From assembly GCF_963921235.1 (NCBI RefSeq), contig NC_086108.1, positions 49,540,001 to 49,604,000 on the forward strand: DNA of 64,000 bases. Direction: 5' to 3'. Within the stretch, counting starts at the first letter, position 1. Every line of letters begins with the position of its first letter. The notes under the pieces were generated by a model. The model was given only the letters and a program-made list of their open reading frames with translations. It did not search any database and had not been told where the DNA came from. The stretch comes from Mobula hypostoma. Its lineage: Eukaryota. A program made the position numbers and the translations under genes. Below are positions 16,969-59,000 of the stretch, one piece after another.

Positions 16969-17068
16969 ATGAATGCACTCATCTTACTGGCACTGACTGC
17001 TTACAGCTTTCTTATTATGTTATCCCATGTATCTGGCACCTATGTTTGGACTGGTAGAAGATACGTAG
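16969..17068 (+). CDS. LAMC2: LAMC2 exon 1 (coding part): signal peptide MNALILLALTAYSFLIMLSHVSG-TYVWTGRRYV
   Basis: AAAATG start, hydrophobic core, VSG cleavage-type end, AG|GTAGGT donor in phase 1 matching exon 2, TATAAG about 95 nt upstream. Confidence 0.82.
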
Positions 17069-35000: not shown

Positions 35001-38000
35001 GGAAGTCAGCAGATCAGGGAACATTTGTAGAGGGTAATGGACAGTTAACTTTTCAGGTCAAGACCAGATGAAGGACCAAGACTGTCCTTTCCCCTCTGCA
35101 GATGTTCTCCGACTCTCTAAATTCCCTGCTCTTTGTTTTTTGCGCATAGTTGACTTTCACTGAAACTACTTGTGACCCGAGTAGCAAAATTTTGAGAATC
35201 TGCGTAGAATGCCACAGCCCAACACTGATGCTTCTGAAGGCTGTAATCTTTCATTTGGTAGCAAGCAGCAGGAAAGGGAAATCAGTTCCTGTACAAAGTC
35301 GATAAAATTACCTCAAAGTATGTTTAAGTCTCAGTTGCCAATGACTAAACTCTTATTTTATCTTTCATAAAGAAAGAGTAATTGATCAGGGTGGGTTCAG
35401 TAATACAACGCAATAGTTTCTTCAAGTCATCGTCAAGGACAGAAGAGAGTTTGCAAAAAACCTGAAGAAAATGAATAGATAGTAAACAATTCATCGTTGT
35501 GTGTATATACTCATATACTTGGAACTATGGTAAAGGCTCTGCCTCACAGTGTTGAGACATCTGTTAATGCTTCACAATGTGCCACGTTTTGACATGTTGC
35601 ATGGAAATGCAAAGGCATCTTGTAAGTGACCAAAATATCGATATTGGTTGATCAATTGTGAACTAACTACCTTTTCCATGCTTAAGTGATTATTAAATGT
35701 CTGCATTAATATACTATCTAGACAGCATCATTCCTGCTCATGTAGCACTCAGTTTGTCTGTATTATCGGGGATGAACACCCTTTGTTTTTTTAAAATCGT
35801 GGGATGGACTTTGAACCTGAATGCTTTTAATTAGAGTTAAAAGTGCACTCAACTGAGTGAAGTTAACAAGAACTTACTGTGAAGTGGTTTTGTTTCGATG
35901 TTTTCTGTTTCTCTCAGGCTCCACTGGTAGTAGCTGTGATGAGTACGGTCGCTGCAGGTGCAAAGCAGAAGGGGTGATTGGGGACAAGTGTGACAAGTGC
36001 CAGCCTGGGTTTTACTCATTATCCAGCACTGGTTGCAGGTAGGTGAACTGTTACCTCCTCCTGCATGGCATGTCTTTTGAACTATGATGTAGTACTGCAC
36101 TTTTAATGCATAACAACAAAAATAAAACAGCGAACTTAATGTTTGTACAGGCCAAAGGCAAGCCATTGTTTTAGAGGTACACCACTTATTAGTTCTATAA
36201 TTGAAATATAAATCTGCCTTTCCTCTGTTCAGAGGTAAATCAGGTCTGCTGTTCGTTGATATTGTTTTCTGCCTTTTGAACAATTTGCAACATCTGGTGT
36301 TTCTTATTATTTCATCTATTGCACTTTTAACTTTCTGCAGTATGCCAGATAACTAAACCAATCCACTTCTTGCGGCAAGGTTGATCAATGTCTTTGTAAC
36401 TCTCGATTCACATCCTAATCTTTTTGAATTGCTCGCACTTCCATTCCTTTGATATTCTTCCTTTATAAGCAACTGTCTAGTTCCCTTTTAAAACAATTTA
36501 TGGGCTTTGCTTAAACAAAGATTTGTGGTGGAAAATCCTACATTTTAACCATAGAGTGTGCAAAGAATGCTTTTTAGCCTTTCTTCTGGTTTTTGGTGAT
36601 CTTTACTTTATGCCATCATATCATCAACTCATCAATCAGTGCACACAATCCTTCAGTATTTACCATTTCCAAACCCTGCACAATTGTGCAATCCTCCATT
36701 AGCTCATCCATTAACTATGCAACCTTGATGAGAAGATTTGAATCTCCCTTTGCAATGTGAATTTTTCATCTTAATGGGTTTAGGCAACAATCTTTTCATT
36801 GTTTTTATGCCCATTTTATAACAATGTTCTCCAGACTATACATCACACCACAGGCCGAAACACCAAATAGTTGATTAACAAGTACTATCAGTCAGATGGG
36901 AAGGGGAACATGTGGGTCAACATAAGTTACCTGGGTCAGCCGGGCAAGTTAAGAGCTACATTATCCACATATTTCCATGTAACTTATATGAGAGTGGCAC
37001 ATGGAGTCAAAAACATTCAGTACTCTCTGGTCAGTGACGTGATCTGCTATTACTTTAACAATATACTATTTTGTGAACTCATCAAAGACCTATATAAGAG
37101 AACACACTACATCACACTGTGCACAATCACTGTGTTACACCAGCCAGATTTCTTCACAATAATAAACTGCCAGCACCTCTCTACACAGAAATATAAAGGT
37201 TTTACCATTAGCTGAGAAATAGTGCTTCCAGAGCAGGGTGGGTGGAAAGTAGCAGGACAAAACTTAGTGTTCCATTTGAGTTAATCATTGCATGACACCC
37301 AATTCTCCCAGAATTAAAAAACTGTTGTTTTGATGGCAGGCGCTGTACTTGCAATATGGCGGGTGTTACAAGAATTTGTGATGCTGAAACAGGAGAATGC
37401 AACTGTAAATATAATGTTGAAGGGTCCAACTGTAATCGGTAAGTGGTTCAAATAACCTCACCATTAGGAAGAGTTCTCTCTCATATTTCTTCTATTTTTC
37501 AGATTTCTGCTCTCACCCCAGCTTCCTCCAGATGGAACAGTGCTAAAGTGCCCCTAGTGCTCACCTATCACCCTCCTAGCCTCCAAATCCAGCGCATCAT
37601 CCTTTACCATTTCCACCACCTACAGTAAGATCCCACCACCAGCCATTTCTCCACTCATTTCCACCTTCTGTAGGAACCACTCCCTCCTCGACTCCGTGGC
37701 CCACTCATCTCTCCCTGATCTCTGAGGTAAACCCCTGCATCTACCAGAGGTGTAACACTTACTCTTGCAGCTCCTCTCTCACCACCATCCATAGACCTAG
37801 ATAGTTCTTCCAAATGAGGCAAAGATTCATGTGCACCTCCTCCGACTTTGCCCACTGCATTCAGTGCTCCTGACATGGGTCCAAGGGCAGATGAGGAACC
37901 TGATTTAAAGACAAAGATTAGCTTTATTTGTTATTGAGATGCGTCGTTTTGTGTCAACGGCCAACACAGTTTGAGGATTGTGCTGGGTGCAGGCTACATG

Positions 38001-41000
38001 TTTTACCATGCTTCAGGTGCCAGCATAGCGTGCTCACAACTCAGTAGCCCTAACCGTATGTATTTGGAATGTGGGAGGAAACCAGAGCACCTGGAGAAAA
38101 CCCATGCGGTCAAAGGGAGAGCACACAAGCTCCTTACAAGCAGTGGCGGGTGTCAAACCCTCATCAGCGATTGCTGGTATAGTAAAGCTATTGCGCTAAC
38201 TGCCACGAACAATTCACCGAGCGTCCATGCTCTCTCTGCAAGGGCCATCCTAAGCTTCCGTCAAGTGCAGTTTCTGTTCCCCTTCCCATTCCCACACTGA
38301 CCTGTCCTCAGCTTCACCCTCCATTGTCCTTCCTCATCCATTGCCAGAGTGAGGTCATATTCCACATGGGTGGTCATAGCCCAGCGATATGAATATTGAT
38401 TATTCCAAATTCAGAATAGATTCTGCTATAGTGTGCTCCTCCCTCTCCCCCAACCCCCCCCATCTGATCCTCCAGTCCTCTTATTTTCATCTTCTTTCCC
38501 ATGTGCCAGCCCCTCCAGCCTCCCCTCACCCATTTTCATAGTCCTCTCAGTTCCAACCTACTACCCATACATTTCTCCCTCTGCCTCTCATCGCCCAACC
38601 TCCTCCATCTTGTTCTGGTTTCATCAGCCTTTCATCTCTCTCTTAATACTTCTTCTTATCACTCTCCTGTTATCAGATACTGAATGTATGTTCCTGTTAT
38701 CACCTTTTTGTAGCTAAAACCACATTTACCCTCCCCCCCACCAGGTTTTATCAGCCCTTTCAGTCTTGCCTCCATCTAACATCCATCTCCTGCTGACTCC
38801 CAGCTTCCATGCTACCCCTTCCCTACCTGACTCGATCTGTCCGTCATCCTTCAATCACCCCAGCCCTGGTCCATCCCTCATTAACCTGGTCCCTGTCTCA
38901 TCACTCCCCTCACCTCTTTATACCGGCTATCTTCCCGTTCCACTTTCAGTCCATGCCCAAAACATCATCAATTTCTCTCCTTCCACCACCCCTCATGCCA
39001 AAACCAGCTTAACCTCCAAGTTTATCCAACAAATTGATTGTTGCTCCAGGTTCCAGCATCTGCAGTCCGCTGTGTCTCCATTAGAAAATGCACGTGCAAC
39101 TACATATGTTTTTACACTATAATTATGTTTAACATTGGCAAGTATAACTGTCCTTAAGTCATACTGGTAAAGTAGCAAATCTAGCATTGTTAGTTACTTC
39201 ATCGGCATAATTCTTTGACAATATCTTCTGACCCTCCCTCCCTACCTACCTATGGACCTATACCTGAAGCTAATAAAATATACAAATTGCACAAAATTTT
39301 ATTAAACATATTAGTTAACCTTTATAGTTACTATTTTATTGCTATTTGATTAAAACTATTAGTCTTCCATTTTATTTTTCAACAAAATATTGAGCAAAAA
39401 TGCATAGTAAAAATTAATCCCTGGTCTTGGATGTTATTTTACAACAAGGGTCATTTTGCATGAATTAGGTGGATCTTTCAGCATTTGATAGGTGTCTGCC
39501 TGATTTGGAAGTACTGTTGAGCAGTGCTATATCTCAAAGGAACACCAGTATCATGTAAATAAAGCAACAAGAAACATATTCCAAATGATTTTTTTCTTCC
39601 CCAAAGTTGCAAGTTTGGCTATTACAACCTTCATCCAGAAAACCCCATGGGCTGTTCAGCATGTTTCTGCTTTGGGCATTCATCAGACTGCAAAGTGGAT
39701 GATGGTTACCAGGAGGCTGACATCACATCCACCTTTGATTCAGGTACTGTGGCACCTATTGTAATGAACTGAGCTGAGGTAGCGCTCAACAACTAATCAT
39801 GGTAGAAATTTAGTTAGCATTAAGAATAAAGTGAGGTCACGAGCCAGAATTTTTGGCGGACTCAAATGTAAAATCAAGCCTGTGTATGGAATCAATGGTC
39901 GAGTAGTCAAAGTGAAAAGATTGTTTGAATGATTTGTGTATTGACATTTTGGAATATGTTACCCTAGTAAGCCAAAAGCTACCGGTTTGGAGAAGCCAGC
40001 CTGGGCTTCCGGTTTTGAGAGCTATGCATCTCATCTTCACTTTCCTCAGCTGGCCTACAAACATTCATTGTCCAAGAGCAGAGTTTCTGGAATGCAGCTA
40101 GTGTCTACAGAGTCATACATCAGCATTGAGGTGACAGGAGGAGTCAGGTTGGAATGTGTCCACCTTCGGGCTGTAGGGTTGGAGAATAACTATTGGAAGT
40201 TTTGTACAAACTAAACTCTTACTTGTAGTAGTGTGAGGAAATGCAAGACAGGTAACAGTAAGATCCTTTGATAAGAAATCACAGTACAGCAGGTGTTAAA
40301 GATAATGATCCAAGTGCCCATCTGAGCCATTTAAATTCTCACCTGAAACAAAAGTTGTTTTCCATTTCAGAGGAAGTGGATTCAAAAGCTAATCTAGTAA
40401 TGTTATGGAAGTTGTCAATGTATTAACATTTCACTTTGTCATAACATTGAAATGCATGTTACTCCAGCTTGAAATATTTCAGAAAAGGAGTGCACCATTG
40501 TTACGTTATACCAAAAAATTTGTGCATCAGTTTGGTAAGGAAGAAAGACGCAAATTCCAATTATGTACTTAGAACTACAAAGCTTTGTCTATTAGGACAG
40601 AATAGCAAGCATTAAGATGCTTATCTGGGTGTTCACAGGCCCCTCTCACTGCCCGACCCGTGGCACCGTACACGACCAGCTCATTGGCGAGGCCCAAGCT
40701 GCAGTATATTTATACCCAGTCCACTGATATGAAATGCTGCAGTAGGTAGGTCAATACATTAGCACAATCTCAAACCACCAAACCAGGACCACTTATCATC
40801 ACTATCAACACACTTCACAACCCACAACTGTTCACCTGATTTTCATGCTCACCTGGTTGTAGATTGCATTCTGAATGTTGTATTGTAGCTCCATGGTTGC
40901 TGTGTTGTATCTCCACAGTCATAATCTAAGCTCCTGCAGCCAGTTCACATACGCCCAAGGTCACAGTAGCGAAGACGTTTGATAAGCGTAAGGATTAACC

Positions 41001-44000
41001 CTTTACAATACAACCACGACAAGGGGTGATAAGATACCAAAAATAATTTCTTTTTGCAAGTGGTAAAGGTTGGAAATTACTAATTATCATGTTATGTAAT
41101 GTGACTAGTGAGTATACACTGCACATTCTCCATTACATAACGGAAGAGAATGGCTCCTATTATACGTCCAATGATTGTACAGTGATTGCTTGCATAATTT
41201 CTTTGTGCAGTTTAATTTTGTGATGGCATCCATTAGTCTTGCGAGACCATTGATCTGCCCCTGGAAAGTCCGTCTGTGTTGTACCGTCGCAGTGAGGCGA
41301 CGCTGGAGTGTCCTCTCCAGGGTGCAGGCCTGGACAAGGTTGTATGGAAGACTGGCAGTTGCCCATGCAGCAAGTCTCCCTTCTCTATGACACTGATGTT
41401 GTCCAAGGGAAGGACAACGGCCGATACAGCTTGGCACCAGTGTCGTCACAGGAATTGCCAGAACGAGGTTGAAGGCAATGTCAGACTGCCTTAGGGACTC
41501 CAGCTCTGGATTTGTCCTCAGGGTTTACTACTGAAGCCTTCCCCATGAGTGGGTATGGCCACAAGGCAGTGGAGGTTTGAAATCAGAGTTTTCCCTCTCC
41601 TAGATGGACTGCCTTCCCAGGCTGACAAGCTCCATCTACCCGAAGCACTGGTTTTAAGGCGCCAGGACCCGCCTTCGCCCCTTCTCCTGTCAGTAGAAAC
41701 AGTTCCACGGGGCTTAGAGGCTAAGCCACACGAGAAGGCCAGGAGTTGGACTTGGTTGTCAGAGGCTATTTGAGGCGCATGCAGTGAGGAGCACCTTTAG
41801 GTAGTGGGAGCTTGTCCCCACTACCACTCCTCCGCTTGACAACCTTGGAACAGTTTAATATTAGTGTTTAATTTACTGATTTCAGCTAATCTGGGATATT
41901 GCTGAAAAAGACATAATTAATTGTCATTAAAATTACAAAGAGCTTGTAATTTACTAGCCTTGGTTTGTGCACAGGTACTGAAAACTGGAAAGCACAGCAT
42001 CGCTGGGGTTCTGATCTCCCTCTCATGAGATCATCATCATCTCGTGACGTTATTCTTCAGGCTGAAGATGAATACCCGGTATACTTTGTTGCTCCAGGTG
42101 AGATGAGAGCAATTACAGGCACTGCGTGCAATTTGTTAATTCTGGTTCAATTATATGATGCATGCTTTGATAAACCGCCCATCTGAAATTGCATGCAATA
42201 TCTCAGCATTTAGAATGCTCTTATCATTCAACTTTGTGTTCTCTTACTCAAACACTTTTACTATTTTGATTAATTTTGAGCTCGCTTCAAGAATCAGCAA
42301 CTTTCAATTTTGCAGTCACAAGTGGATTGTCAGTAACTCTAATTGTCAGTACTTTACAAAACAGGTAGAGAGGGTGGATTTCCACTTTTGCTAGAATTGT
42401 AATGTTAATCAGTATTTTGACCATGACAACTGACACAATCATTTTTGATACTGATTTTGTTTCTTACATTCTTAGCTGAAGATAAGTAACATATCTATGT
42501 GAGATTTTTATGTTAAAGGGAATAATATAGAATTAAGTTTCAGAATATTGGCTTGTCCATTTAAGACAGAAAGGCAGAGGAATTCCCTCAGAGAATTATG
42601 AATCTCTCCAATTTTCTACCCCAGAAAGCTGAACATGGAGTTGCTGACTGCATATGAAGCTGAGTTAGACAAATTATTGTACTACTGGGGAATCATGGGT
42701 TGCAAGGAATGTGGAGTTGCTGAAATTGGCACAGACATGATTTTATTGATGGATAGAGCCAGTCTGAGTGGCCATATTGAGAATTCCTACCCCTATCTCT
42801 TAGATAGCTGTGGGCTGCTGCGCATTAGCAGTAGGATGCTGTGTAGGCCTTAACAATTAGGTGGGAGCTGGTCTCCCTTTGAAAGGCTGCCCTTTGGCCT
42901 TCACAGGTAAAAACAGCATTTTCCTGATGGTGCACAACCCAGTCGTGACTTCACCAGCTGGTAATCGAAAACAGTGATCAAGTGTGGGATGGCTTGCTGT
43001 TTCTCCTGCTTCACAATAAATGCTATAAGAAAAATCATTAAACAACTGAATTTGTTATAGCTATGAACTGAAAATAGAGCCAATTTTAAGGCCTGTTTCA
43101 GCTTGCTATTATGTAGGTTGTAAAGATCGTTTCTCATTTTCCACTTCTTTCCGTCTTTAGCCAAGTTCCTTGGAAATCAAATGTTGAGTTATGGGCAAAA
43201 TCTCTCCTTCACATTCTACTTGGAAAGGGATGGTGCCTACCCATCAGTGGAAGACCTAATCCTGGAAGGAGCCAGTCAGACACTAACTGCACAAGTGAAC
43301 GCACAAGGCAATCCAATGCCATCCACGAACAAGCAAACATACAATTACAGGTAGACAAAGCAGATGTTTGGATAGCAAGTATTTAAAAGTTCAGTTGATG
43401 AATAATTCTGATTGAACTGTGATTAAATAAAACCAACCAGATCACCTCCACCACATTGAGCACCAACTACAATTCCCGGTGAATACCCCTGTTGTGAACT
43501 AAGGCATAGTGCTTATTGGGATTGAGTGGGAACAACTATCATTAAGTCCACAGTATGTTACCAGAAGGTAGCTCTTACAATGGCCATATAATTAACTTTG
43601 TTGTAATCTTTAAAGAATTGATAGAATAAACCATTTACTGTTTATTTGTTATTAAGAGTCATGATTGTAAAATTTTTCTGTTGGTATTTTGTTTAGTAAT
43701 CAAATGATGTAAGACTATCTGACTATCTTAGATAATTTCCTTTTGTTTCTGTAGGCTCCATGAGGCTCTGGAGTATGGATGGAAGCCATTTATAACCTCT
43801 TTTGAGTTCCAGCGGGTGCTCAGTAATCTCAGGGCCATCAAAATCCGTGGTACCTACACCCAACGGAGTAAGTCCGTGTAAAGCTCCCTTGAGCTGGGGT
43901 AAATTAAATGTAGGAAGCACAATATTGCAAAGCAAATCAATTCATCAGAGAACAACCAAAATATGTTCAAAGGTTTAGGTGAATATGTGAAGCAGATGTA

Positions 44001-47000
44001 AAAAAGTTTGAAGCATCAATCAATATTTGTGTTCATCTGTCAACAGATTAATACAGTATCACAGCTATTACATTCAGGCAGATGGTCCCAATCAATTGTT
44101 CCCGTGCAGATACTTGGACCGGTTTGGTTACTTTCGGTGGACACTTTCTCAGCTCCTAATTAACTTCAAGCAGATGTCAAAGATATTGGAAAAGCAAAAA
44201 AAGCACTAACACAAGCCAATGTTATAGGAATTTTAGTTTATTATTATTTTTAAGCCATAGAATCATAGTTGTTTAGGCCTGCTTCTCTGCAATAACCCTA
44301 CTTTATTCGTCACCACTTTCAACACATCTACTCCCAGATTTTGCCACTCCCTTTTATACCAGGGGCAGTTTATAATGGCCCATTAATCTACCATCTGCAC
44401 ATTCTTGAGATGTGGGAGGAAACAAGAAAATCAGGTGAAAATCAGAAAGAACATGCAATCTCCACACAGACAACACTGGACATCAGGACTGAAAGTGGGC
44501 CACTGGAGGTCTCAGGCAACTATTTACTATTTGTGTCATATGTAAAAGGCTGCAGATGCCCTAAGTCTGAAATAAAGGCAGAAACTGCAGCTCAGACAGT
44601 ATCTGCAGAGAGAGAAAAATAGTTCATGTACCAGATCAATGTCCTTTCATCAAAAATGGAAGTTGCTTGTCAGCATTTTTAGTGGTTTTTTTCATATAAT
44701 TCTATTCTTTTTTCCCCCTGTTTTTCAGTTTATTTATTGTATAAGCTTAGCAATCAATGAAGATTGGAATCTTTGGGCAAACTGCAAAAGCTGACAACTT
44801 CTCTAACATAGAAAAACTTATATTTTCAATGGGAATGGCAATGTTGAAAGATGATAAAGTGCAATTTTGACATAAACGTGGTGCCTCTGATTCTGATATC
44901 CTTGCTGAGCAATCCATTGCCAGATTGTATGACTAGGAACCCTTACACTAGGTTTCTGCATTTCCAGGGCACATTAATTTCAGCTGTCGGCACAAATGGC
45001 ACTCGCTTTGATCCAGATTAGAAGAAAACAAAATGAGCCAGCCATTCCTGCTACTGCTCAGTAACTGGTGATTCCTGGCTTTCCTCTTCAGTGAGCCCAC
45101 AGCAATGAAGAATGAGCCATGATAACGGGCCTCTCCTTTTCTACGCCGATCCACGTACTTCCCCAATAAAGGCAGAGTTGCTTTGAGTCCTTCCATTTCC
45201 CCCAAAGTACTAATGGACGTTTCTTTAGAGGAATGGATGGACTTTTCATCCAGATCTACTTTATCTGATAGACATAGGGAAGATTCAGGAACCTTTAAGG
45301 AATCTAACAAGTATTGGATTCCATCTTTTGAGAGTTGCTTAAGATTTGCAGACGCCCTACTTTCTCCCTGAGAGTTGTGGATGGCAGCCAATGACTTTCA
45401 ATGCTTCTAGACCCATAGCTGACATATCGTTGTCCGGCCTCTGTGAAGGGCTTGGACAAGGATTGGGTTTAAGCCAGGTCTCTGGAAAGTTGAAATATCA
45501 ACATGTTCAGGTTGTGCAGGTAAACTGCACTTAAAGATCTAAGCTTAGGAACCAAGTGGCTCAGGCTAGAACATCAGTGTTGCTCCAGGGATTCTTATTC
45601 TTTGCCTTCCTCATTTCTATTTTGTAATGTTCAATGCAGAAGGGCATTTTAGATGTACTGCTTTAGGTTGCTCAGTAAGAGCACTATTAAAGCCTGACTG
45701 AATGCACTTACAAGCAGTCAACACATAGTTGAATATAAGCATAGTACTTTCTCAGTGTTATTAAACTACTGAAACATGTAATAGTTCAGCAATATGGTAC
45801 TGAGAATAAACTGAATACTTTGTATTCTAGGTCCTGGCCACATTGATAATGTAGTCCTGCACACCGCCCGAATTGGCAATGGAAAACCAGCTCAGTGGGT
45901 AGAGAAGTGTACGTGTCCAACGGGTCATGAGGGGCGATTCTGTGAGAAATGTGCAAAAGGTTACACAAGGGAAAGTCGTCATCTCGGACACTTCAGCCGT
46001 TGTGTGCCATGTAACTGTCAAAGCCCCAGTGAGACCTGCGACCCAGAAACTGGTGAGTCTGCTGATAAACTGACTCTGGAATGGGAGACTCTTATCTACG
46101 TCTCTCCTCCTAATAAACACCTGTGGGACTCTTGGTGAAAGTAGAGTACTGGGAGAGAAATTCGTATGGAATGTTACGGAAATACACAAGGACAGAAACT
46201 CATTTCCGGTTGCTTGTACTAAATACATAATAATTGTTGTGACTGCATGCTGACCTCCACTTACAAAATTCAGCTCTATCCATCAACTTCAAATGTGCTA
46301 ATGTCTTGATGTTCTTGGTTTTTCTTTTTATAAAGATTACACTTATAAAACAGTAGACATTAAATAAATCTAATGTTTACCTGCAATATACACTTTTTAA
46401 TGCCTGATCAATATTCCATGATATTTGATGTCAGTTTGCTTTTACTTATTCCCATTGGTCAATTTGTCAAGGACGTCAATAGAACAACTGAGTAACACCA
46501 GGTATTAGTAAGTGCTGAGTTCAACATTGAGAATACCTTTGTCACTCTATCAGAAAAAGGATGGGAAGGATCTATCCAAGATGTTTCTAGCTCTTATAGA
46601 AATGAGTTGCCAGGAAAAGAGCAAATATCTAATTTTAGCCGGAATAAGTGGGGATACAGATCAATGAAAGACTGTGTGAAATTAATTAAATATTTAACAC
46701 AAACAATGAGCACTGAAGTAGATGACAACAAGGGAAGGCAGCTGCCTTGGTGTCAGATGGTTGCCTTAAACAGAAATTTGTTCAGTTCATGTTGGAAAAA
46801 GGGAAAATGCCCATTTGTCCAGTTGACAAATTCTTGAATTTTTTTTCCTGTTGCATTCTAGGCTCCTGTTACACCAGTGATCAATCCAGAAACCAATGCC
46901 CACATGGTTACTACCTTAATCCTTCTGAACCAAGTGGGTGCAGTGTCTGCCCTTGTCCTGCAGGTACAGGTTGCACTGTGGCACCAGATGCAAGGGAGGT

Positions 47001-50000
47001 TATATGTGTGGGCTGTCCAGATAAAACAATGGGTAAGTGTTGGCTACATCTATCAACCTTAAATGTGTTAAAGTTGCTATTTTTAAGAGCACATGAAAGA
47101 AGCACGACAAAAAGTACTTCAAACAAAGGAAATACACTGTTATATACAACTCAGGTTAGAACCATTTATCATAAGTGGCACAGCCATATAACATTATCCA
47201 CCTTGTATGTGAATGCCCTAAGAAAATCTACCCATTATGCCAGGCTGTGTTGTATAACATTCTTAAAACATCATCTATATGCAAACATTTCCAGATGTAA
47301 ATCAAGATGGTTTCAAAGTCCCAGCTCTTAAGTCATTGTTAACTTGTCCAAATTGGGTCTTGGTCTAAACATCCATAAACAAAGATCATCTATCTGTCTG
47401 TCCCATTGCAGAGCACTGCCCTACCCAACTCCACCCCCATCACCCCCAACAATAAAGGTCCAGAACAAGACATTGGCAAATTAAGAACACAATTAGTGAT
47501 TAAATATACCAAGACCTCCAATGAGCTGGCTGTCTGAATAAATATGTGTTAGATGATCATAATATCAAACCTGGCATGTGTACTGGACTACAGAGATCAT
47601 GACATGGCACCAAGAAGAACTGCAGAGATACTACCAATGATCTCTTAAAGTATTTTTCAAATCTACTGGCTGGATGACACCAGACTCCCAAAGCAGACAT
47701 TGTACTCCGAACTCCATCATAGCAGGAAATTATCTGGAAACAATAAAGGAACATTCTCTGAAAAAAATTGTAAAATCTTCACCAATTCCTGACCCTTGAG
47801 TGCTGAAAACAGTAAACATGCTGGAAACATTAATTCTTCATTGTAACTACGTAAAGGGCAAGTGAGTGTGGCAGATAGTACACAACATCCCCATCAAATG
47901 CTTCATCAAGCACCTCTACATCATCTGTGGCAGACTTCATTTAGCCCAGAGATCATGCAAGCTCCATCCTGAGGGACCGTTTGTGATGAGGAAGAATTGA
48001 GATAAAACCTTATTTAAAAGATACAGTAAATTACATTGAAATGTATTTCATCGCATCCAGAAGTGAATTAACCTATGTAATACTGCATTTATAACTGTTA
48101 TTGTACCTGTTTTTATAGCATCAGGCATAGCAATACAGTACAAACTTAAACAAAAAATAAGATGCTCCATATAAACTGCATTTTGATTACACTTTGGAAC
48201 TCCTTTAATATCTCCCAAAATGTTGTGGCATTAATATTTTTGTTTTGCCATCAATCTTGTTCCTGAGACATTATCGTTACGTGAAGCTAGTTATTACCGT
48301 AGATCGGTTTATGTATTGAATATACTAGATCTCACTGTTAGAACATCATCATCATCATCATCAGGTGCCATGCTCAGTTTGAGCTTTGACTGGAATGGCC
48401 CACACACTCCTGTTTCGGTTCAAGTGGATCAATTCATTGGTATTCATTTCCAGTTCTCTGGCTTCTGTCTCCATCATCATTTGCCTTTGTCTTCCTTTTG
48501 CTTTCTTCCCTTCAGTCTTTCTCATAATTACCGTACATTCTAACTCCTCTTTCTTAATCACATGTCCAATGAAGTTACGTTGCCTTTTCATGATCTCATA
48601 AATTATTTCTCTTTTTGTGTTTGCTCTGTTCATGACATCCTCATTAGATATCCTCATTATAACACTCAGTCAATAATTGCATCATTTATTCAAAGTACCT
48701 CCTGGTTTACCACAAGAGAGAACTACAATGAAGCAAATAATTTCACCATCACTACACCAAAATCATACCTAACAAATCCTTTCTTAGTCACTAAATTAAC
48801 ATAGAATTGTGATGAGCTTAACTTTTCCCATTCATAGTTCAGTATTCAGATTACAAATGGTTAACCACTCCGCATTGATAATTTAACATAACACAACATA
48901 TCTACTGTATGTGAGAAGAACACATATTAAAGTCATTGGTTGTTTCGGGAAATGATGGTTCCAGGATAACATCCCATGCACCATCAGTTTATAGGCCATA
49001 CCACTCAGGGACTCAGGCTATATTTTTTGTGACTGTATGTTTCTTTGCTATCATAACTACCTGTATATACTATATATGCAATGTGCTCTGTGTTGGCCCT
49101 GAATAAACGCTGCTTTGTTTGGCTCCATACATGTGTATGGTTGATTGACAATTAAACTTGTAGTTGAACTTGCTTTGGCTAAGAATGATTAGTGTTTAGT
49201 TAACACCAAAGTTCAAGTTTCAAACACAGGCAATCTTCATTCCTTGATCTAATTGCACCATTTTCCTAGGTAAACAGTGTGAAATGTGTGAAGAAGGGTA
49301 CTTTGGAAACCCACGAGCAGGTAGACGCTGCAAACCTTGTGCATGCAACAATAATGTGGATCCCAATTCAATTGGGAACTGTGACCAGTGGACGGGGGAA
49401 TGTCGGAATTGTCTCTACAATACTGCGGGACATCACTGCGAGAGGTGCAAACCTGGATTCTATGGAAACGCACTTGCCTCTAATCCATCAGAAAAGTGCA
49501 AACGTAAGAACTGCTTTTAAATTTTATATGTGCTTGTCTTTGTGCAATTAATTTCATGCACTGAATCTGCAAAACTTTAGGTTAGTTTTGCATTAAAGCA
49601 AACTGTAGCCACTTCATGTTCTCATTTGATTCAATTTTTTTCTAATCAAGTCACTACATTAAGGCTGCTAAGTTAGAAGTTCTTTTTACATTGCTGGATT
49701 GTGATCCACATATGGCAGATATCCAGTGAGACATCCATTCTTCTTTCTTTTCAAATCTTTTTATTGTTATGTTATACAGGAAAAATAACATGAGTACATT
49801 GAAGTAACAACACTTACAATGCCTCAAAAAAGACATTATCTTAAAGATTGAAAAAAATTTTGTGATAACAAAAAAAACCTACTAAGCAGAAAAGTGAGAG
49901 AAAAAAGAACCCATTAGGTGTACAATCCCAGAGTCATGCATCATACAAAAAGCTTCTAAAAATAAACATCAAACCGCCAACAAGAGAAGAAAATATACTC

Positions 50001-53000
50001 AAAAATTTACAATTAGATCGTGGAAAAATTATATCAATTAACTCAAATGATAATAACGAGCAAATGAGCCCCATCTTTTCTCAAAATCAAATAAAGGTTC
50101 AAAGGTTCAACTTTTAATTTTCTCCAAACTAAGACATAGCATCACTTGAGAGAACCACTGTGACAAAGTGGGAGCTGATGTATCCTTCCACTTCAACAAT
50201 ATGGCCCTCCTAGCTATCAATGTAACAAATGCAATAACATGTATTATTACAATGGGATAAGCATCCTTTATCTAAGATTAAACAGGATTGGGAAAAGGAA
50301 CTTAATTTGACTTTTATGACGGAGGATTGGATGCGGATATTGAAGTTGGTTAACTCTTCTTCAATTTGTACTAGCCATTCATTGATTCAATTTAAAATTG
50401 TACATCGTTATCATTTGACAAAGGAGAGACTTTCTAAAATCTTTTCTAATGTTGATAGTCATTGTGATAGATGTAAAACTGAGATAGCTACACTGACACA
50501 TATGTTTTGGTCTTGTTCTATATTAGAACAGTTCTGGAAGTCGGTTTTTTCAACAATTTCTGAAGCACTTAAAATTAATTTACAATCTAATAAATTAACT
50601 GTGCTTTTTGGAATAATTCCTCAAAATATTCATGGTATTTCTGTGTCTGAGACATCCATTCTTACTAGTTTGGAATGAGCTCAGTTTTTCAGCGGTTAGC
50701 CATTGTAAAGGGGATAACCATCTGCGGATTTGTTGACAAGGCACAGAACTAGTCTGAGACCAAGTGTTTAAGGACCTAAATAGAGGAAAAGTTGTCTCCC
50801 TCCACAGAGCTCCTCACAAACTGTATCATCAATTCCCGTTGCCTCCTGACAACTTTCAAATGGCAACTATCAAAACCATCTCCCCCTCCCCCTTTCAAAT
50901 CCCTTACTCACTCTTCCTTCAGTTAGTCCTGACGAAGGGTCTCGGCCTGAAACGTCGACTGTACCTCTTCCTAGAGATGCTGCCTGGCCTGCTGCGTTCA
51001 CCAGCAACTTTCATGTGTGTTGCTTGAATTTCCAGCATCTGCAGAATTCCTCGTGGTTTATGTATCAAAAGTGATAATCATATTCTTTTAAACACAATTA
51101 AATATATTCAATTGTGACAACGGCCAAGAATTGTTTAGTGGCAATCAACGTTAAAGAGTGGTGGGGATGGTAAGTAAGGCCACGAGTGGGTGAATGACTG
51201 GTGGGAAAAATAAGTCAAACTCAAGGTAATAACTTCACAAGCAAACTTTCCCACATTTTTGTGCTCTCCCTTGCAACATTAGGCAACGTATTGTATGAAA
51301 TGCAAACTCTCTTCTCCCACGGTCAATGGATTTATTAAGGTGACTGAACAGGCTGCTTGAATGTAAGATTAACTGTTTCATTAATAAAATAGTTGTTTTA
51401 CAATAAAGGAGTGAGACATTTGTTATGCTTTAGTTTCCATATTCCATTACTGCAGGTTTTCTCTAAACTTTTGAGAAGTATTGTATCAAAGAAAGTGAAG
51501 GAACAGACCTTAATTAAAAATAATGTTACTTTTGCAGCATGTAACTGTGACCCAAGAGGTTCTTGGTCCTTACAGTGCAGGGGTGATGGGACATGCAGTT
51601 GTAAGCCAGGAGTTTTTGGAGATCAATGCAACCAGTGTGCAGGAAACTCTTATTACAACAGCACCACAGGCTGTGAGGTTTGCCCTGACTGTTACCTATC
51701 AGTAAAAAACAAGGTAGGTGTCTGCTTTCAAGTTCCCAAGAGCTTGAAGATACTGTTTACTGTATATTCAATACCTTGATAGTGTTGACTAAGAGCAAGG
51801 CTTATGACAAAAGTTATTACTTTCTGAAAATGCCAGCCTACATGTTGATCTTACTGGCATGTCTGCTAATATGTTCTGCTGATAAAAAGAATGAGTAAAA
51901 TAGGGAAACCAATATTGAAATTTGAGTCCAAAAATGGAAAGTAAAGATTAAAGGCATCAGCCTGCTTACAGTATACATACCACATGTATTGTAAAGGACC
52001 ATTCTGTAAATCTTTCAAATTTTAATGTGATAAGATTTTATTTTAATTCAGAAATAAGATTAGATTAGCTTCATTTGTCACATGTACATCAAAACATCGA
52101 AGCATATAGTTATATGCACTGTTGTGTCAATGACCAACACAGTCTGAGGATGTGCTGGGGGCAGCAAGTAAGTGTCACCATGTTTCTGGTGCCAACATAT
52201 CATGCTCACAACTTAGTAACCCATTCATCTTTAGAACGTGGGAGGAAAATACAAGTGGGAGGTACTAAGTTTTCATAATCTGACATATACAGTAGGCTAT
52301 AATTAATATAGAACAAACAATTTTACCATAAAGAAGCTTGTAGGGTATGATAGATTCAAGACCACTATTTAAGTGATAGTATGATCTTGGAGCATATATT
52401 AACAATCATGCACATTGGCACTGTTCCCCTCAATGTTGCTATCATGGGTAGGTGTTGACTCAATGACACCTAGCCTGTTCCATTGAGGTCAATTATCAAT
52501 GTTCAATGCAGTCATGAAAATCACTTCCAGGAAATGCATTTACTCTTTAGCCAGGTGATTATAGCAACTATTATTCTGCATGAAAGTAAATTTCAACAAA
52601 CATCAGTTCACTCTGATAATTAGATTCACCATCTTGTAGTTTTGGAAACTGGTCAAAGGCAGGACCACATCAGTTTCTGATGTGTCATTTTATATAGTTA
52701 GATAGATACTTTAACATAAAAAACATAGAAAACCTACAGCACAATACACGCCCTTCGGCCCACTATGCTGTGCCAAACATGTGCTTACTTTAGAAATTAC
52801 CTGGGGTTACCCATAGCCCTTTATGATTTATTGATCCCAAAGGAAATTACAGTGTCACACTAGCATTACAAGTGCACAGAAATACAAATATTAGAAGAAA
52901 ATTAAAAAAGAATTTTAAAAAATTTACCTTAAAAATAAGATGTATAAGGTTTCCAAGTTCACACTGATAAGATGGTAGTGCAAGAATTACTGTAATTTTA

Positions 53001-56000
53001 TACAGTAATGGATGTACATCCACACCGTCCAGATAAGTGATGGTGGCATTGCACAGTATTGTGCAAGGTGTCCAAGATATCAGGGTGTGGTAAACAGAGA
53101 TAAACAGAAGTTAATAACAGTCTAACAGGAGAGGGTCATTACTTCCCCGGCTATAGGTTATAGCCTAATAGAGCCTAATGGCTGACTCCAACTCTTATGC
53201 ACAGACTCTAACTTGGTGATTTGAGCAATATGTTTCCTTGGATGTCCTGTGCTCCTGAAATCATGTTCAATTCTACGCAGGAGAATAAAGGTGAAGATTG
53301 GGAGTGGATCAGGTAAACAGGATATCTTGCAAAATAAAATGAGGCGTAAACATTGCTAACAGAAAATGTGAGGCTTGCACAGCCAGAGGCACAGCAGGTG
53401 TTCTTCAAATGAATGGAGAGAGCTATTACTATCACCACCATTAAATAAGCCTCTACCCACCTCCCCAGCCCTTCGATGCCTAATCTTTCCACCATACTGC
53501 TTAATATTTGCATTCTAAACACAAACTTTGATTATTATACAATCCTGAAGCTACATTTAGATTATATTCCTGGTTAATCCTCATTGCTGGCAGAGAACAA
53601 CGTGAAGTTAATTTGTATCTAAATCATTCAAATAAAAAGTTTAGTTTTGTGCAATGTTCTACCCATGCTCTTCAAATGCTTGCGTCGAATCTCTGTTAAA
53701 CTAGTTAAAAATAGAAGTTTTGAAATAAGGCATGCAGACCACTCAGGATGCTTTAAATCTATGTTACTAGTCCACAGATCAGATAAAAAGATGCCTCTGA
53801 TTTGCTTGCTGGGACTGCTATGCAAATACCTATTTCATCATTCCCAACTTCACCAGTGTGAGATATTTGTCTCTCTAATTGGTCTCTGACTTCGCCCAGT
53901 TATTATCCATTCACAGATAAGATAGGTAGATTTTGGATGATTCTCATTTCACAATGTGAGCTTTTAGATAAAACAAGTACTTGCAAATGGATTGTTGGAA
54001 TTTTTGGATGAATTATTTTCCCTCTCTGTTCTATCCATCAGATACTGAAACACAAGAATGTCATCAGAGATCTGGAAATTGTCATCTCAAAACTGATAAC
54101 AAATGGGAGGCCAGTGAATGACAAGGACCTTGAGGCAAGAATGAGAAAAGCATCAGAAGTCCTCCACAAAATGATGACCATGGCTAAAGAGATTGAAAGT
54201 AAATACCCATTTTGACTTTGATGCATCAAATTCCTCAAACTTTATTGATTGTATTGTATGTAACAGATTCATTTCTTCCTTTTGAACTGACTACCCTAAA
54301 GTATCTCATTCACTTGGCTGCACTTAATGGTTCATCAAATTAGTCAGCTATATAAACCATCTCAACCAACAAATCCTAGTCCCCATCTATTGTAGAGTCA
54401 TCAAGCCATACAGCATAGAACAGGGCCCTTCAGACCAGCAATATCCATGCTGATCTTTTTGCCCATCTGCACTAATCACATTTGCCTGCATTGTTCATAT
54501 CCTTCTGTGCCATGTAACATGTATGCTGGATTTCACCATCTCTTCTGTCAGCGAACTCCAGATATCAAGTTCTCTCTGTGTAAAGAGAGTTTTCTCTTCA
54601 TATCCACTTTTAAAACTCTTTCCTCTCACCTTAAGCCTATGCTCTTTAGATTTTAACAATCTTACCTCTATCAAGTCATCCCTCAACCTACCAACCTATC
54701 AAATCTATTCCCATAACTAATGTCCTCCAATCCAGGCAACACCCTGGTGCAGCTCCTCTGCACTCTCTCTTGCCTATCTCTATTATAGAGATAAAAATGA
54801 GCTCCTCCCTATGCTGGCTGAGTTTTTGATCTGTTTAATCGTTCTGTATTTTTTTTAAAAATGACTAGTCAGGTGAGATCAAGTAACTTGACATGGATTG
54901 AACTTGAAATTTTCCTTGTTGTTGTAGTGCAGTATCATACCACAATGGTGCATTAATAGAGTAGAGTTGCCATATGTAGAAGCATTCAAGAGACATAAAT
55001 TTAAGAAGGTAATGTATCTAGCCCTGGCAGTAAAGAGCCGATTCTTTCTACAGATGATGATGAAAGTAATCTCGATGAACTGAAAATCTTAAACAATAAG
55101 CTGGGCACCGAGACTTATCGCCTGAACAACATTGGGAAATCTGTTGATGAGATTAGAAGGTTGATTTTAAATTATGAAGATCGAGTCCAAAACACGGATC
55201 AGCTGCTAAGTAATGTCAGGACAAAAATCCGGCAAAGCCGGACGGAAATGGACCAAATGGTGAGTCCTCATGAGATTAAAAAGGCTAAAATTTTCATTAT
55301 TTTAAAATAACATCCTGTCTGTTACAAAATGGTCATTGTTGGTATCCAAGTTAGGAATGCAAACAAGGCAGCCCTGGTGTTTCAAAACCCTAAGATTCCC
55401 CAAATGTAGTACCCTGACAAATGGGAAATACACTTACTATTTCAGTCCCTAGGTACAACTGTCACTTCTACTGCTGTAACAAAATCCCATGAAATATTAT
55501 TAGTCATTTACCGTAACTCGGTCACTTGTTATTTTGCAATTCCCAGGTAGTACATATTCCCCCAGGTAGAACATAACCCTTTATAATGCCACAGCTTCAT
55601 GTTTCACCATTGTTTCTAGTAATGCTGCAGTATCTTGCAAAGACACTTAGAGTAGCCTTGCTGTGAAATAATCATTATTATAGCTACATGTAATAACACT
55701 GCCTACTGCTATGACAGAGTTCTTCACCAATTCGCTATTATGTCATCAGTGTGTAAGAATTTGAAGCAGAACTGGCAAAATGACACTTTAAGCATTCATT
55801 ACCTTTCAGTGAGAACACAGTCCATGCAATACCTCAAGTTTACTTTGCTGACTGTTTCTGCATTCTTTAATTCCCCCAATAGAAATAAAGTCACTTTCAG
55901 GCTTGAATATCTCAGTCAATATACTGAATGACTGAATATCCCTTTGAGATAGATAATTCCAAAACATTATCTTTTCTTGAAGGAAATTTCTTTTCTACAT

Positions 56001-59000
56001 GCTCTTAGATGGCTAATCACTAATCCTGAGGCCGTATCTCAGAATTCAGCAGCTGGAAGAGTCAGTATCTACCTCGTGGGTTCCCAAACTGGGGTCCATG
56101 GAGCCCTAGTTTAATGGTATTATCCATAGCATTAAAAAGGTTGGGAATCCCTGATCTACCTTCAGTGTCATAACTCCTTTTAATGACCAAGCCCTCATTA
56201 AAAATTATGTGATATAGTTGAACCAAAGGGCATCTGGGTGAAAATAATGTTGAACAATATAACTGCTCAAAGATTAAAGAAAGGCAGAGCTTCTCAGTAA
56301 CTCAGCTGACACAGATGATAGATCACATGTATTTGGACTCCGTCCCTGATCAGCTCACAGTTGCTGCAATTACTGCTGTTGAGCTACATTAACACTGAAG
56401 CATAAGATGAAAAATCTATCCTGTAATTGTGGCTACTGCTGAAAGGGATATTGATACCAATCCAGTCTTTTACTCAGACAACATTAGTTTCTCTCCCCTA
56501 ATGAATAGGCACTTGGAGAGCAAAACAGCATTTGACAGCATCGACGGGAAGCAGGATTCAAAGTTTTGAGGATGGATTGTGATTAATGCTGTAAATTCTA
56601 ATAATTGGGAAAATTAGATATTGTTGACAACTGTTACATTATTTCTTACAGCCATCTTTGCCAACAAATCCTAGTGGAGGCACTGTCCCAAGTGTTTTGG
56701 CAGATGAGGCTCGTAGACTGGCAGATAAGTATGTGGTCTATTTATAAGCATTCCATTGCCAAATTCATTTCATGCCTTCAAAGAGGAATACTAGGAAATT
56801 CGATTTTGTCGTCTTTTATTCAGGCATCAGAAAGATGCAGAGGACATTGAACAGTTCAGTGGAGCTGCCAACATGTCTGCTTTCGAAGCCCTTCAAATCA
56901 TTACTCAAGCAATCAAAGAAGATCAGCGAACCTCAGAGGCCATTAAACTACTAATTCAGCAGTAAGTTGAAGCAAACTTCCATCAATGATATCTGAACGC
57001 TTACTTTACACTTTGTACTTTCGCACACCTCTATCCCTCACTGTACTGACTACAACATACGATGGAAAATAACAATTCTTCTCTTTCAATTGATGTTTAG
57101 CTGAAGTGCTTAAAATGTTAAAATGGTGCTGCAAATCCCAAAAAGCAAAATGTACTCAGGTCTTGTCATGATACCTGTAACACATATAAAGCAACCAAGG
57201 AACTGTTATCTGGATAGGTTTAGAATTAAGTCATAACTGATACTCATGACCAAAACAGCAGGCGCTTGTTGGACTGCAAAATAATTTATTTTTTTAATAA
57301 AATTCCATCAGATATATAGAAATTGTATTAACTGTTGAAGGTAACTATAAGTATTCTTTATCTACAAAATAACTGAAGAGTATCGTAGAGGCGGTCACAA
57401 CCCCAGCAAGATCACTTGAAGATAGTTAAGTGCAGTTTTACACGATACCATGAATATGGGAATGAACATAATTACAATGTAAAGCAAGGAAAGGAAAGAA
57501 ATTATACGTAATAAATCAGTGGACCACTGTCTCATACAATGAATTAAGCAACGACAACTTGCGTTTTGAGAGTGGTATCTCGACTATGTGGGGGTATTTT
57601 AAACATGATGCTAAGAGATTTCATTCTGCTTAGATCAAAACAGAAGAGTGACATGGCAGCATATCTAGAAGAACAAGCAAACAGAATAACTACAAAAGCA
57701 CGGAGAGGCAGTGAGAGGGCCAAGAAGAACTATAATGAGCTGAACAATTTGCTTACAACTGATATATCATCCCTTGAGGTAGGTTATGTTTTTGAGTCTG
57801 TTGATCAAGGGAAGGGGAAAGGAAGAAAGATCCATACCACTGATGAATTTCATTGGTGAATGGAGATAATTCATGATGGAATCCATCAGTTTATCACAGG
57901 GTGGCTTTGGAAGCAGTGAAAACAGTAAACAAAAGGTGATGCATTTGATTTCAGACTTAATGGTAATTATTCATCAACTATCAATTACGGAGAAGCTATT
58001 CAAGCCTTTTTCCTTGCTTAAATGGGAAAAGAATTGCATTCTTGACCCTCTGTAATGGCTCCAAATGGGCCATTTAATCAATGCACCACCCTCATGTGAC
58101 CAACGAGGAGAGTACAGGTGAGATCCTTTGCTGCTGGTGTGTTAACTGATTTCATCTGGGATTCAGAATTGACTTTAGTGCCCCATTCCTCAGGAGGATT
58201 AGTATTAGCATTCAGATCACTTTGTAATTAATAGGTTTTGATGTTTGATTATAAACAGAGTACCAAGCCTGAAGCATTGAATTAGTGGATAACTCACTGA
58301 CTCATACTCATGATCTCATTTTAGGCAGGGAAAGGAAACTATTTTGTTAACAAAAAGATACTTTAGAAATGAATATCTCAAAGAACATAATATTTCTATT
58401 ATCATCAATTACTTTCTTGTATTGATTCAGGATGATGAATCTTCTAATAATTTAACCTCCTCCTGCACCTACATAGGGCACCTTCTGAATAAGAAAAGAT
58501 TGTGTTTCAGAGTTCAAAGATAATTTATTTCAAATTAACTGCAATAATAGGATCAAGAAGGTTCCTCCACTTTTCCCATCTCCGTTGTCTCAGAGAGAAA
58601 CCCAGATAGACCAGACAGACTATGAAAGTGGGAATAAGGAGCAAGTAGGGATACAATCGTAATGTACAACAAAGTCATCCCATGAATATAGCTGGATATT
58701 TGAGAACTTAGGGTGATGAAATCAAAATGAAAATAAAATCTTTACTTTTCCTCATCAGAATGAAGCAAATCAACTGAAAGACAAAGAAGCTGCCATGGAA
58801 TCTGAACTGAACAAAAAACTTGAACTGGTTGAAACTTTGAAAAATAGTGTCAGTGATTCCCAGAGAGAAATCGCGAGAATTTTAGAGAAAGGAGAAATAG
58901 ACAAAATGGTAAGTATCTAACAACTGTGAATATGGTGAAGTGGTTGTTGAGTTTTCTTGAAGATTTGCTTTGATCCATATTAATATAAGAATTATGTCAT

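What the first reader, a model, noticed from the sequence alone, without database searches (positions are those of the whole stretch)
49353..49418. A gamma-2 chain that keeps the gamma-1 nidogen-binding residues
Seen: NVDPNSIGNC...CLYNTAG with Asp, Asn (+2), Ile (+4) and Tyr (+19). Known: high-affinity nidogen binding by gamma-1 module III4 (NIDPNAV) depends on Asp800, Asn802, Val804 and Tyr819, the same spacing. Mammalian gamma-2 has NVDPSAS (and His for Tyr, as recalled), and its two serines explain the very low nidogen affinity. Inference: this animal's laminin-332 may bind nidogen directly and link to collagen IV, an ancestral basement-membrane wiring later lost. The module lies C-terminal to the predicted BMP-1 cut, so it would be retained.
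Basis: partly seen in the sequence, partly recalled or inferred. Interest (0 to 1): 0.75.

Follow-up and report, generated by a model that had tools for sequence, protein, structure and literature searches.

The report
Ray laminin gamma-2 keeps nidogen site
This devil ray's laminin gamma-2 chain, like those of the other sharks, rays, chimaera and coelacanth examined, keeps the residues that gamma-1 uses to grip nidogen, so it likely still binds nidogen, unlike the human chain, although binding has not been measured.

Summary
A spliced exon (49270-49503) encodes Asp, Asn+2, Ile+4 and Tyr+19, in register with gamma-1 Asp800/Asn802/Val804/Tyr819. The gene is an LN-less gamma-2-type chain of a Mobula ray; trees reject placement with gamma-3 or with shark gamma-1. 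The motif is not special to this animal. All 15 of 15 cartilaginous-fish gamma-2 chains keep D, N, an aliphatic residue and Y. Coelacanth and sevengill shark have the exact gamma-3-type heptapeptide, and sturgeon and gar keep D/N/V. It was eroded separately elsewhere: Asp to Glu in 120 of 120 bird clusters, Val to Ser in a lizard, varied in teleosts, two serines in human (literature). The ray module was inherited vertically. Against strong binding: Asp is shared by beta chains, and loop positions invariant in 104 of 104 gamma-1 clusters drift here. Conservation of the two diagnostic sites is only suggestive (background chance about 0.16). Most likely it binds nidogen more weakly than gamma-1 but better than human gamma-2. 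The collagen IV link and laminin-332 assembly are untested. Side finding: the bird gamma-2 module looks overwritten from gamma-1 by gene conversion.

The parts
49270..49503 (+). Exon (234 nt) encoding the end of LEb2 and all of LEb3 (III4), the nidogen-site module
   Evidence: AG at 49268-69 and GT at 49504-05; spliced joints 47031>49269 and 49503>51538 in contigs of runs X1-X3
49338..49499 (+). LE module LEb3/III4 (residues 511-564 of P0446), 8 Cys, loop a of the same length as in gamma-1
   Evidence: Pfam PF00053 best stretch 511-564; ungapped alignment to 1KLO/1NPE/1TLE
49359..49373 (+). Loop a pentapeptide D-P-N-S-I, matching gamma-1 D800-P-N802-A-V804
   Evidence: Codons read directly; alignment to mouse gamma-1
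49416..49418 (+). Tyr +19, matching gamma-1 Tyr819 (not diagnostic: His in 6 of 104 gamma-1 clusters; Tyr or His in 11 of 14 beta chains)
46861..47032 (+). Exon with the gamma-2-type shortened LEb1 (lacks Cys5 and Cys6) and LEb2; candidate BMP-1 site with Asp at about 46879, aligned to the S-G-D of chicken, lizard, gar and sturgeon gamma-2
   Evidence: human cut G434-D435 from PMC3544776; cleavage in the ray is inferred
51538..51713 (+). Exon with the single LE module after III4 (two gamma-1 LE modules are absent) and the start of the coiled coil
16969..63877 (+). Laminin gamma-2-type gene, 20 coding exons in the window (residues 1-1020 of 1189); runs off the window's 3' end; a signal-peptide-like exon is followed directly by LE exons, no LN domain
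   Evidence: Exact peptide match to P0446 (RefSeq, Mobula hypostoma) at 1018 of 1020 residues, the other two at exon junctions; no LN hit by tblastn of four gamma-1 chains; no PF00055

Best explanation
This is the ray's laminin gamma-2 chain, and its LEb3 (III4) module carries a vertically inherited copy of the gamma-1 nidogen-binding loop that likely still docks on nidogen's G3 propeller, probably more weakly than gamma-1 and much better than human gamma-2. Shown: gamma-2 architecture and tree position; the four residues; splicing of the exon; retention in 15 of 15 cartilaginous-fish chains; no homogenisation with ray gamma-1. Inferred: gamma-2 arose by duplication of gamma-1 before cartilaginous and bony fishes split. 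Asp, Asn and Ile would insert into the propeller's central pocket as in 1NPE, while spacer positions drifted. The module would stay on the chain after a cut in LEb1. Bound nidogen could tether this non-polymerising laminin to perlecan and collagen IV as one of several redundant links. Birds, a lizard, some teleosts and human each altered the site separately.
For: Register with the solved gamma-1 site. D, N and Y invariant and +4 always V/I/L in 15 of 15 chondrichthyan chains, while +1, +3, +5 and +6 vary. Site rates alternate slow and fast along the loop: D 0.30, P 2.73, N 0.24, S 1.35, I 1.0, G 3.22. Asn+2 occurs in 0 of 14 beta-chain modules, so it is not a fold requirement. The ray module groups with other chondrichthyan gamma-2 (94/91) and is no closer to shark/ray gamma-1 (28-31 of 48 residues) than to dog gamma-1 (29 of 48), so conversion does not explain the retention. 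Coelacanth and Heptranchias gamma-2 have N-V-D-P-N-A-V, the heptapeptide quoted for human gamma-3. Worm LAM-2 with Ile at +4 recruits nidogen in vivo, and even worm LAM-3 with D-x-M-x-I does (passages). D800/N802/V804 are the key contacts (passages).
Against: No binding data and no complex model. Against background the signal is modest: in chondrichthyan LE modules Asn columns are invariant in 11 of 30 cases and aliphatic columns stay aliphatic in 12 of 27 (joint about 0.16; about 0.05 if D and Y are added). The module as a whole is no more conserved than its neighbours (19 of 48 non-Cys columns invariant, against 31-55%). A803, V804, G805 and N806 are invariant in 104 of 104 vertebrate gamma-1 clusters; the ray changes two of them, and other sharks replace G805 with K, E, R or S. 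The last loop of LEb2, a module that adds contacts in 1NPE, is 4 residues shorter than in gamma-1. Teleost alpha-4 shows D-x-N-x-I too (5 of 5), with no binding known to me (recalled). Nidogen is not the major laminin-collagen IV bridge by genetics, and epidermal basement membrane forms in double-null mice.
Confidence: 0.55

Rival explanations
1. Decaying relic: the gene is gamma-2, but the loop no longer binds nidogen usefully. D, N and Y persist through ordinary structural constraint and slow chondrichthyan evolution, and the drift at +1, +3, +5 and +6 has already spoiled the site.
For: Positions invariant in 104 of 104 gamma-1 clusters vary freely here. The diagnostic pair is expected by background at about 0.16. 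The module is not more conserved than its neighbours. The site has been altered repeatedly in other gamma-2 lineages, so it is dispensable there.
Against: Asn+2 is kept in 15 of 15 chondrichthyans, coelacanth, sturgeon, gar, the lizard and 120 of 120 bird clusters, but in 0 of 14 beta modules. The alternating slow/fast pattern falls on the known contact residues. Invertebrate sites with Ile work.
Confidence: 0.3
2. The loop is functional but serves another partner, such as nidogen-2, another YWTD propeller protein or fibulin-2, or it binds nidogen without any collagen IV bridging role.
For: The spacer residues differ systematically from gamma-1 (Ser at +3 in 12 of 15). Mouse gamma-2 binds nidogen-1 and fibulins through L4-LEb1, a different region. 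In worm touch neurons nidogen is recruited without the laminin site.
Against: The conserved residues are exactly the nidogen-1 contacts. No other ligand for this loop was found in the literature searches.
Confidence: 0.1
3. The chondrichthyan gene is not the LAMC2 orthologue but a separate LN-less offshoot of the gamma-1 stem, so the site is simply gamma-1's and no laminin-332 is implied.
For: Gamma-2 monophyly has only 88/87 support. A clade of chondrichthyan chains plus all gamma-1 is not rejected (AU p 0.098). The ray lacks the L4 cysteine and the truncated last LE of bony-vertebrate gamma-2. RefSeq names most of these proteins 'gamma-1-like'.
Against: It would need three identical independent losses: LN plus first LE, Cys5 of LEb1 with an Asp at the same place, and the same two LE modules after III4. 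A shark-specific gamma-1 duplicate is rejected (p 0.0008), as is gamma-3 (p 0.004).
Confidence: 0.05

Closest known systems
Laminin gamma-1 LEb3 (III4) nidogen-binding module (PDB 1KLO, 1NPE, 1TLE)
   Same: Same 8-Cys module, ungapped loop a, D/N/Y at the key positions, aliphatic residue at 804.
   Different: Ser for Ala803, Ile for Val804, Val for Ile799; 4-residue shorter loop at the end of LEb2; sits in an LN-less chain that cannot polymerise; 28-31 of 48 residues identical to shark/ray gamma-1.
Human laminin gamma-2 (LAMC2, laminin-332)
   Same: No LN domain, three LE + L4 + shortened LEb1 with a candidate cut before Asp, one LE after III4, Glu third from the C-terminus.
   Different: Human has serines at +2 and +4 and lacks high-affinity binding (PMC2185082). 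The ray lacks the L4 cysteine (human C309) found in all 7 bony-vertebrate gamma-2 aligned, and has a complete last LE module.
Laminin gamma-3 (LAMC3)
   Same: Carries N-V-D-P-N-A-V, one conservative change from gamma-1; reported to bind nidogen (title of Gersdorff 2005 seen in reference lists).
   Different: Full-length chain with LN, no C-terminal Glu; placement of the ray gene with gamma-3 is rejected (p 0.004).
C. elegans LAM-2 and LAM-3 nidogen loops
   Same: D-x-N-x-I (LAM-2) recruits nidogen in vivo, the same triad as in the ray.
   Different: Full-length gamma and alpha chains; the partner is worm NID-1, so affinity for vertebrate nidogen does not follow.

Membership tests
Laminin gamma-2 (LAMC2 orthologues) | No LN domain; signal peptide followed directly by LE modules | tested here: met
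   No LN hit in the window with four gamma-1 queries; no PF00055 in P0446, present in Narcine gamma-1; a spliced contig of run X3 leaves only about 42 nt ahead of the ATG (computed)
Laminin gamma-2 (LAMC2 orthologues) | Shortened LEb1 lacking Cys5, with an Asp at the processing site | tested here: met
   All 14 gamma-2 rows aligned share it; 0 of 12 gamma-1 and 0 of 2 gamma-3 rows do
Laminin gamma-2 (LAMC2 orthologues) | Two gamma-1 LE modules after III4 are absent | tested here: met
   Same gap in all 14 gamma-2 rows; spliced joint 49503>51538
Laminin gamma-2 (LAMC2 orthologues) | Groups with bony-vertebrate gamma-2, outside gamma-1 and gamma-3 | tested here: inconclusive
   Best tree joins them at 88/87, not starred; gamma-3 and shark gamma-1 placements rejected; sister to all gamma-1 not rejected, p 0.098
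Laminin gamma-2 (LAMC2 orthologues) | Glu third from the C-terminus (integrin binding; absent in gamma-3) | tested here: met
   Present in P0446, beyond the window's end
Laminin gamma-2 (LAMC2 orthologues) | Tandem position beside LAMC1 | tested here: inconclusive
   No LAMC1 exon in the 17 kb upstream; gamma-1 and gamma-2-like proteins list contigs of identical length in Narcine and in Heptranchias, which suggests the same chromosome only
Laminin gamma-2 (LAMC2 orthologues) | Assembles with alpha-3 and beta-3 into laminin-332; cut by BMP-1/mTLD | not testable with these tools
   Partners were not searched for and no genome is held
Bony-vertebrate subtype of gamma-2 (not claimed) | Extra cysteine in L4 (human C309) and truncated last LE module | tested here: not met
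   L-P-C in 7 of 7 bony-vertebrate rows, Ser or Thr in 7 of 7 chondrichthyan rows; last LE complete in chondrichthyans
Gamma-1-type nidogen-binding LE module | Asp800 and Asn802 in loop a, with the same loop length | tested here: met
Gamma-1-type nidogen-binding LE module | Val804 (hydrophobic contact) | tested here: inconclusive
   Ile here; Val in 104 of 104 vertebrate gamma-1 clusters; Ile works in worm LAM-2
Gamma-1-type nidogen-binding LE module | Full vertebrate gamma-1 loop (A803, V804, G805, N806 invariant) | tested here: not met
   Ser at 803 and Ile at 804 in the ray, so it is filed as a variant site, not as the gamma-1 site
Gamma-1-type nidogen-binding LE module | Measured high-affinity binding to nidogen G3 | not testable with these tools

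The most novel reading that the evidence does not exclude
Nidogen binding is the ancestral and still common state of laminin gamma-2: sharks, rays, chimaeras and coelacanth would anchor laminin-332 through nidogen with near gamma-1 affinity. In birds the module appears to be refreshed from neighbouring LAMC1 by gene conversion, yet it keeps Glu for Asp800 in 120 of 120 clusters. The site would thus have been switched down repeatedly by different single changes, and the textbook statement that gamma-2 has no nidogen site would be a mammalian special case.
Probability: 0.3. Interest if true: 0.65.

Novelty: new variant of a known kind. Interest (0 to 1): 0.45.

Why it matters
The rule that laminin-332 does not link through nidogen rests on the human module. 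If cartilaginous-fish and coelacanth gamma-2 bind nidogen, the rule is a derived state, and the epidermal anchoring system moved from a nidogen link to reliance on collagen VII and covalent partners. The natural series found here (exact motif, S/I drift, D-to-E, V-to-S, double serine) gives a ready panel for measuring what the G3 pocket tolerates. The impact is limited because nidogen is a redundant linker in vivo and the residues are an inherited copy of a well-known site.

Tried and rejected
Own-genome search: no genome is held, so synteny and the presence of LAMA3, LAMB3 and NID1 were not checked. Mammalian, amphibian, turtle and crocodilian gamma-2 were sought but not retrieved: one search listed 120 of 442 hits (mostly gamma-1), one search listed 120 of 382 (all birds), and the PDB search with chicken gamma-2 returned no gamma-2 chain among 23 sequences. 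The human state therefore rests on the quotation in PMC2185082. The primary mutagenesis papers (Mayer 1995, Poschl 1994 and 1996, Gersdorff 2005) are not held, so the measured effects of A803S, V804I and D800E are unknown to me. Gene conversion from ray LAMC1 as the reason for the retention was tested and rejected. A shark-specific duplicate of gamma-1 and a gamma-3 identity were rejected. Sequencing runs: no holder is on record as RNA; X1-X4 are guessed RNA, so only the spliced joints are used, not depth; run X4 had no contig over the exon, which shows nothing. Ten literature searches listed no paper on this motif in non-mammalian gamma-2 or on LAMC1-LAMC2 conversion; the library lacks most subscription papers, and supplements were not read. 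Three look-ups of earlier scan findings returned nothing.

Full report
Observation. The + strand at 49353-49418 encodes N-V-D-P-N-S-I-G-N-C ... C-L-Y, with Asp at 49359, Asn at 49365, Ile at 49371 and Tyr at 49416. The 77-residue exon product matches the mouse gamma-1 fragments 1KLO and 1NPE at E about 2e-36, without a gap across module III4/LEb3. The register with D800/N802/V804/Y819 is therefore correct. The exon is 49270-49503. Contigs from three public runs in two studies (X1-X3; RNA status is a guess of the tool) join it to both neighbours at GT..AG joints.

The gene. Twenty coding exons from 16969 to 63877 match the RefSeq protein P0446 (Mobula hypostoma, named 'gamma-1-like') at 1018 of 1020 residues; the last 169 residues lie beyond the window. 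There is no LN exon. Three deletions relative to gamma-1 are shared with bony-vertebrate gamma-2: LN plus the first LE, part of LEb1, and two LE modules after III4. A tree of 31 chains, built without the III4 exon, gives gamma-1 as one clade that includes shark and ray gamma-1 (100/99), gamma-3 outside, and gamma-2 as one clade at 88/87. AU tests on 15 of these rows reject joining the chondrichthyan chains to shark gamma-1 (p 0.0008) or to gamma-3 (p 0.004), but not a position sister to all gamma-1 (p 0.098). A published small tree puts gamma-3 nearest gamma-1 (PMC5785718, passages), which differs from mine but does not affect this assignment. Architecture plus tree make LAMC2 orthology very likely. 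The ray lacks two bony-vertebrate features, the L4 cysteine and the truncated last LE.

How widespread the motif is. In 15 of 15 chondrichthyan chains (rays, skate, sawfish, sharks, chimaera) D, N+2 and Y+19 are invariant and +4 is V (10), I (4) or L (1). Coelacanth and Heptranchias have N-V-D-P-N-A-V with Tyr; sturgeon has D-L-N-T-V with Tyr; gar has D-L-N-A-V with His. Of 13 ray-finned gamma-2-like rows (6 named, 7 assigned by best BLAST hit), 6 keep D, N and an aliphatic residue, 4 have lost them, and 3 gave no alignable module. All 120 bird gamma-2 clusters listed (120 of 382 hits) have Glu in place of Asp800. One lizard, Varanus, has Ser at +4 and a 13-residue deletion, which could be a gene-model error. 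Human has serines at +2 and +4 and lacks high-affinity binding (PMC2185082, passages). No mammalian, amphibian, turtle or crocodilian sequence was retrieved. So the ray is one example of a broad ancestral state, and the site was altered several times in different ways.

Is it under selection for binding? For: along loop a the known contact positions are slow and the spacers fast (D 0.30, P 2.73, N 0.24, S 1.35, I 1.0, G 3.22, N 2.09). Asn+2 is absent from 14 of 14 beta-chain modules, so the fold does not need it. The ray module was not refreshed from gamma-1: it groups with other chondrichthyan gamma-2 (94/91) and shares 28-31 of 48 residues with shark/ray gamma-1 against 29 with dog gamma-1. 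Worm LAM-2 carries D842/N844/I846 and recruits nidogen in vivo (bioRxiv 10.1101/2022.02.11.479800, passages), so Ile is tolerated in at least one system. Background invariance is high (127 of 297 non-Cys LE columns; Asn 11 of 30; aliphatic staying aliphatic 12 of 27), which gives about 0.16 for the two diagnostic sites and about 0.05 for all four. A803, V804, G805 and N806 never change in 104 vertebrate gamma-1 clusters (some clusters are the same species) but drift in chondrichthyan gamma-2. The last loop of LEb2 is four residues shorter, and LEb2 adds contacts in the complex (PMC4227867, passages). Teleost alpha-4 also shows D-x-N-x-I in 5 of 5 rows.

Mechanism. In gamma-1, loop a inserts D800, N802 and V804 into the centre of nidogen's G3 propeller (PMC11260871 and PMC3544787, passages). 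The ray loop has the same length and an equivalent triad, so it would dock the same way, probably with reduced affinity (inference). The candidate processing site, an Asp at about 46879, aligns with S-G-D in chicken, lizard, gar and sturgeon. The human cut is G434-D435 (PMC3544776, passages). The site lies upstream of III4, so the module would be retained if cleavage occurs (inference). The onward link to collagen IV is the weakest step: reviews state that genetics does not support nidogen as the major bridge, and that epidermal basement membrane forms without nidogens. Assembly with alpha-3 and beta-3 was not tested. I put N-dependent binding clearly above human gamma-2 at 0.55, a decaying relic at 0.3, another partner at 0.1 and non-orthology at 0.05.

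Side finding. From Pro801 onward, bird gamma-2 matches the majority residue of 13 bird gamma-1 rows at 45.75 of 48 residues on average. Flanking modules of chicken and ostrich gamma-2 are only 26-48% identical (non-Cys) to gamma-1. A module-only tree puts bird gamma-2 with amniote gamma-1 (92/94) and rejects gamma-2 monophyly (p 0.016; 56 columns only). Both paralogues carry His+19 in manakins, and His+19 plus a rare Arg (3 of 120 gamma-2, 1 of 13 gamma-1) in swifts, although a treeswift gamma-2 does not. This suggests gene conversion between LAMC1 and LAMC2 in birds; DNA-level tests were not possible, and these pairs were picked out after viewing 12 pairs.

Literature. Ten searches listed no paper describing this motif in non-mammalian gamma-2. 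The library lacks most subscription papers and I read no supplements. I saw passages of PMC2185082, PMC4227867, PMC3618921, PMC3544776, PMC11260871, PMC3544787, PMC5785718 and the bioRxiv preprint, and only the reference list of PMC2120759. Mayer 1995, Poschl 1994 and 1996 and Gersdorff 2005 were seen as titles only.

Verdict. A real feature with a correct gene assignment and a plausible, directly testable function. It is an inherited copy of a known site, shared across cartilaginous fishes and other early-branching jawed vertebrates, and binding is unmeasured. New variant of a known kind; interest 0.45.

Noticed in passing
Bird gamma-2 proteins P0167, P0301-P0419 against bird gamma-1 (P0048-P0098 subset); homologous to window 49362-49503: The bird gamma-2 III4 module is nearly identical to bird gamma-1 (mean 45.75 of 48 residues) while its flanks are far more diverged; rare states are shared by both paralogues in manakins and swifts; Glu replaces Asp800 in 120 of 120. 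Possible recurrent LAMC1-LAMC2 gene conversion with a maintained switch residue.
   Followed up: partly
window 43145-43351 and 46861-47032: Chondrichthyan gamma-2 lacks the L4 cysteine of bony vertebrates and has an even six-cysteine LEb1, so a cut before the Asp would be predicted to release the N-terminal fragment without the disulfide reshuffling described for mouse.
   Followed up: partly
window 51538-51713: The last LE module is complete in all 7 chondrichthyan gamma-2 rows aligned, as in gamma-1, but truncated in all 7 bony-vertebrate rows.
   Followed up: partly
P0035, P0037-P0040 (teleost laminin alpha-4): An alpha-4 LE module carries D-P-N-L-I at the aligned positions, with a loop one residue longer; worm LAM-3, an alpha chain, binds nidogen by a similar loop.
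   Followed up: no
P0160/P0428 (Varanus gamma-2): Ser at +4 and a 13-residue deletion removing two cysteines and the Tyr of the module; real decay or gene-model error.
   Followed up: no
window 11723-12805 (+): Two open frames resembling a Tc1/mariner transposase remnant upstream of the gene, judged by eye from the translation.
   Followed up: no
window 824-1537, 18419-19405, 50238-50675, 61935-62708 (+): Fragments resembling LINE reverse-transcriptase-type retroelements, judged by eye; intronic repeats at 48184-48804, 49633-50667 and 50875-51081 draw very high depth in all four runs.
   Followed up: no
P0002-P0013, P0444-P0447: RefSeq names nearly all of these chondrichthyan gamma-2 chains 'laminin subunit gamma-1-like', which may hide them from gamma-2 surveys.
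   Followed up: yes
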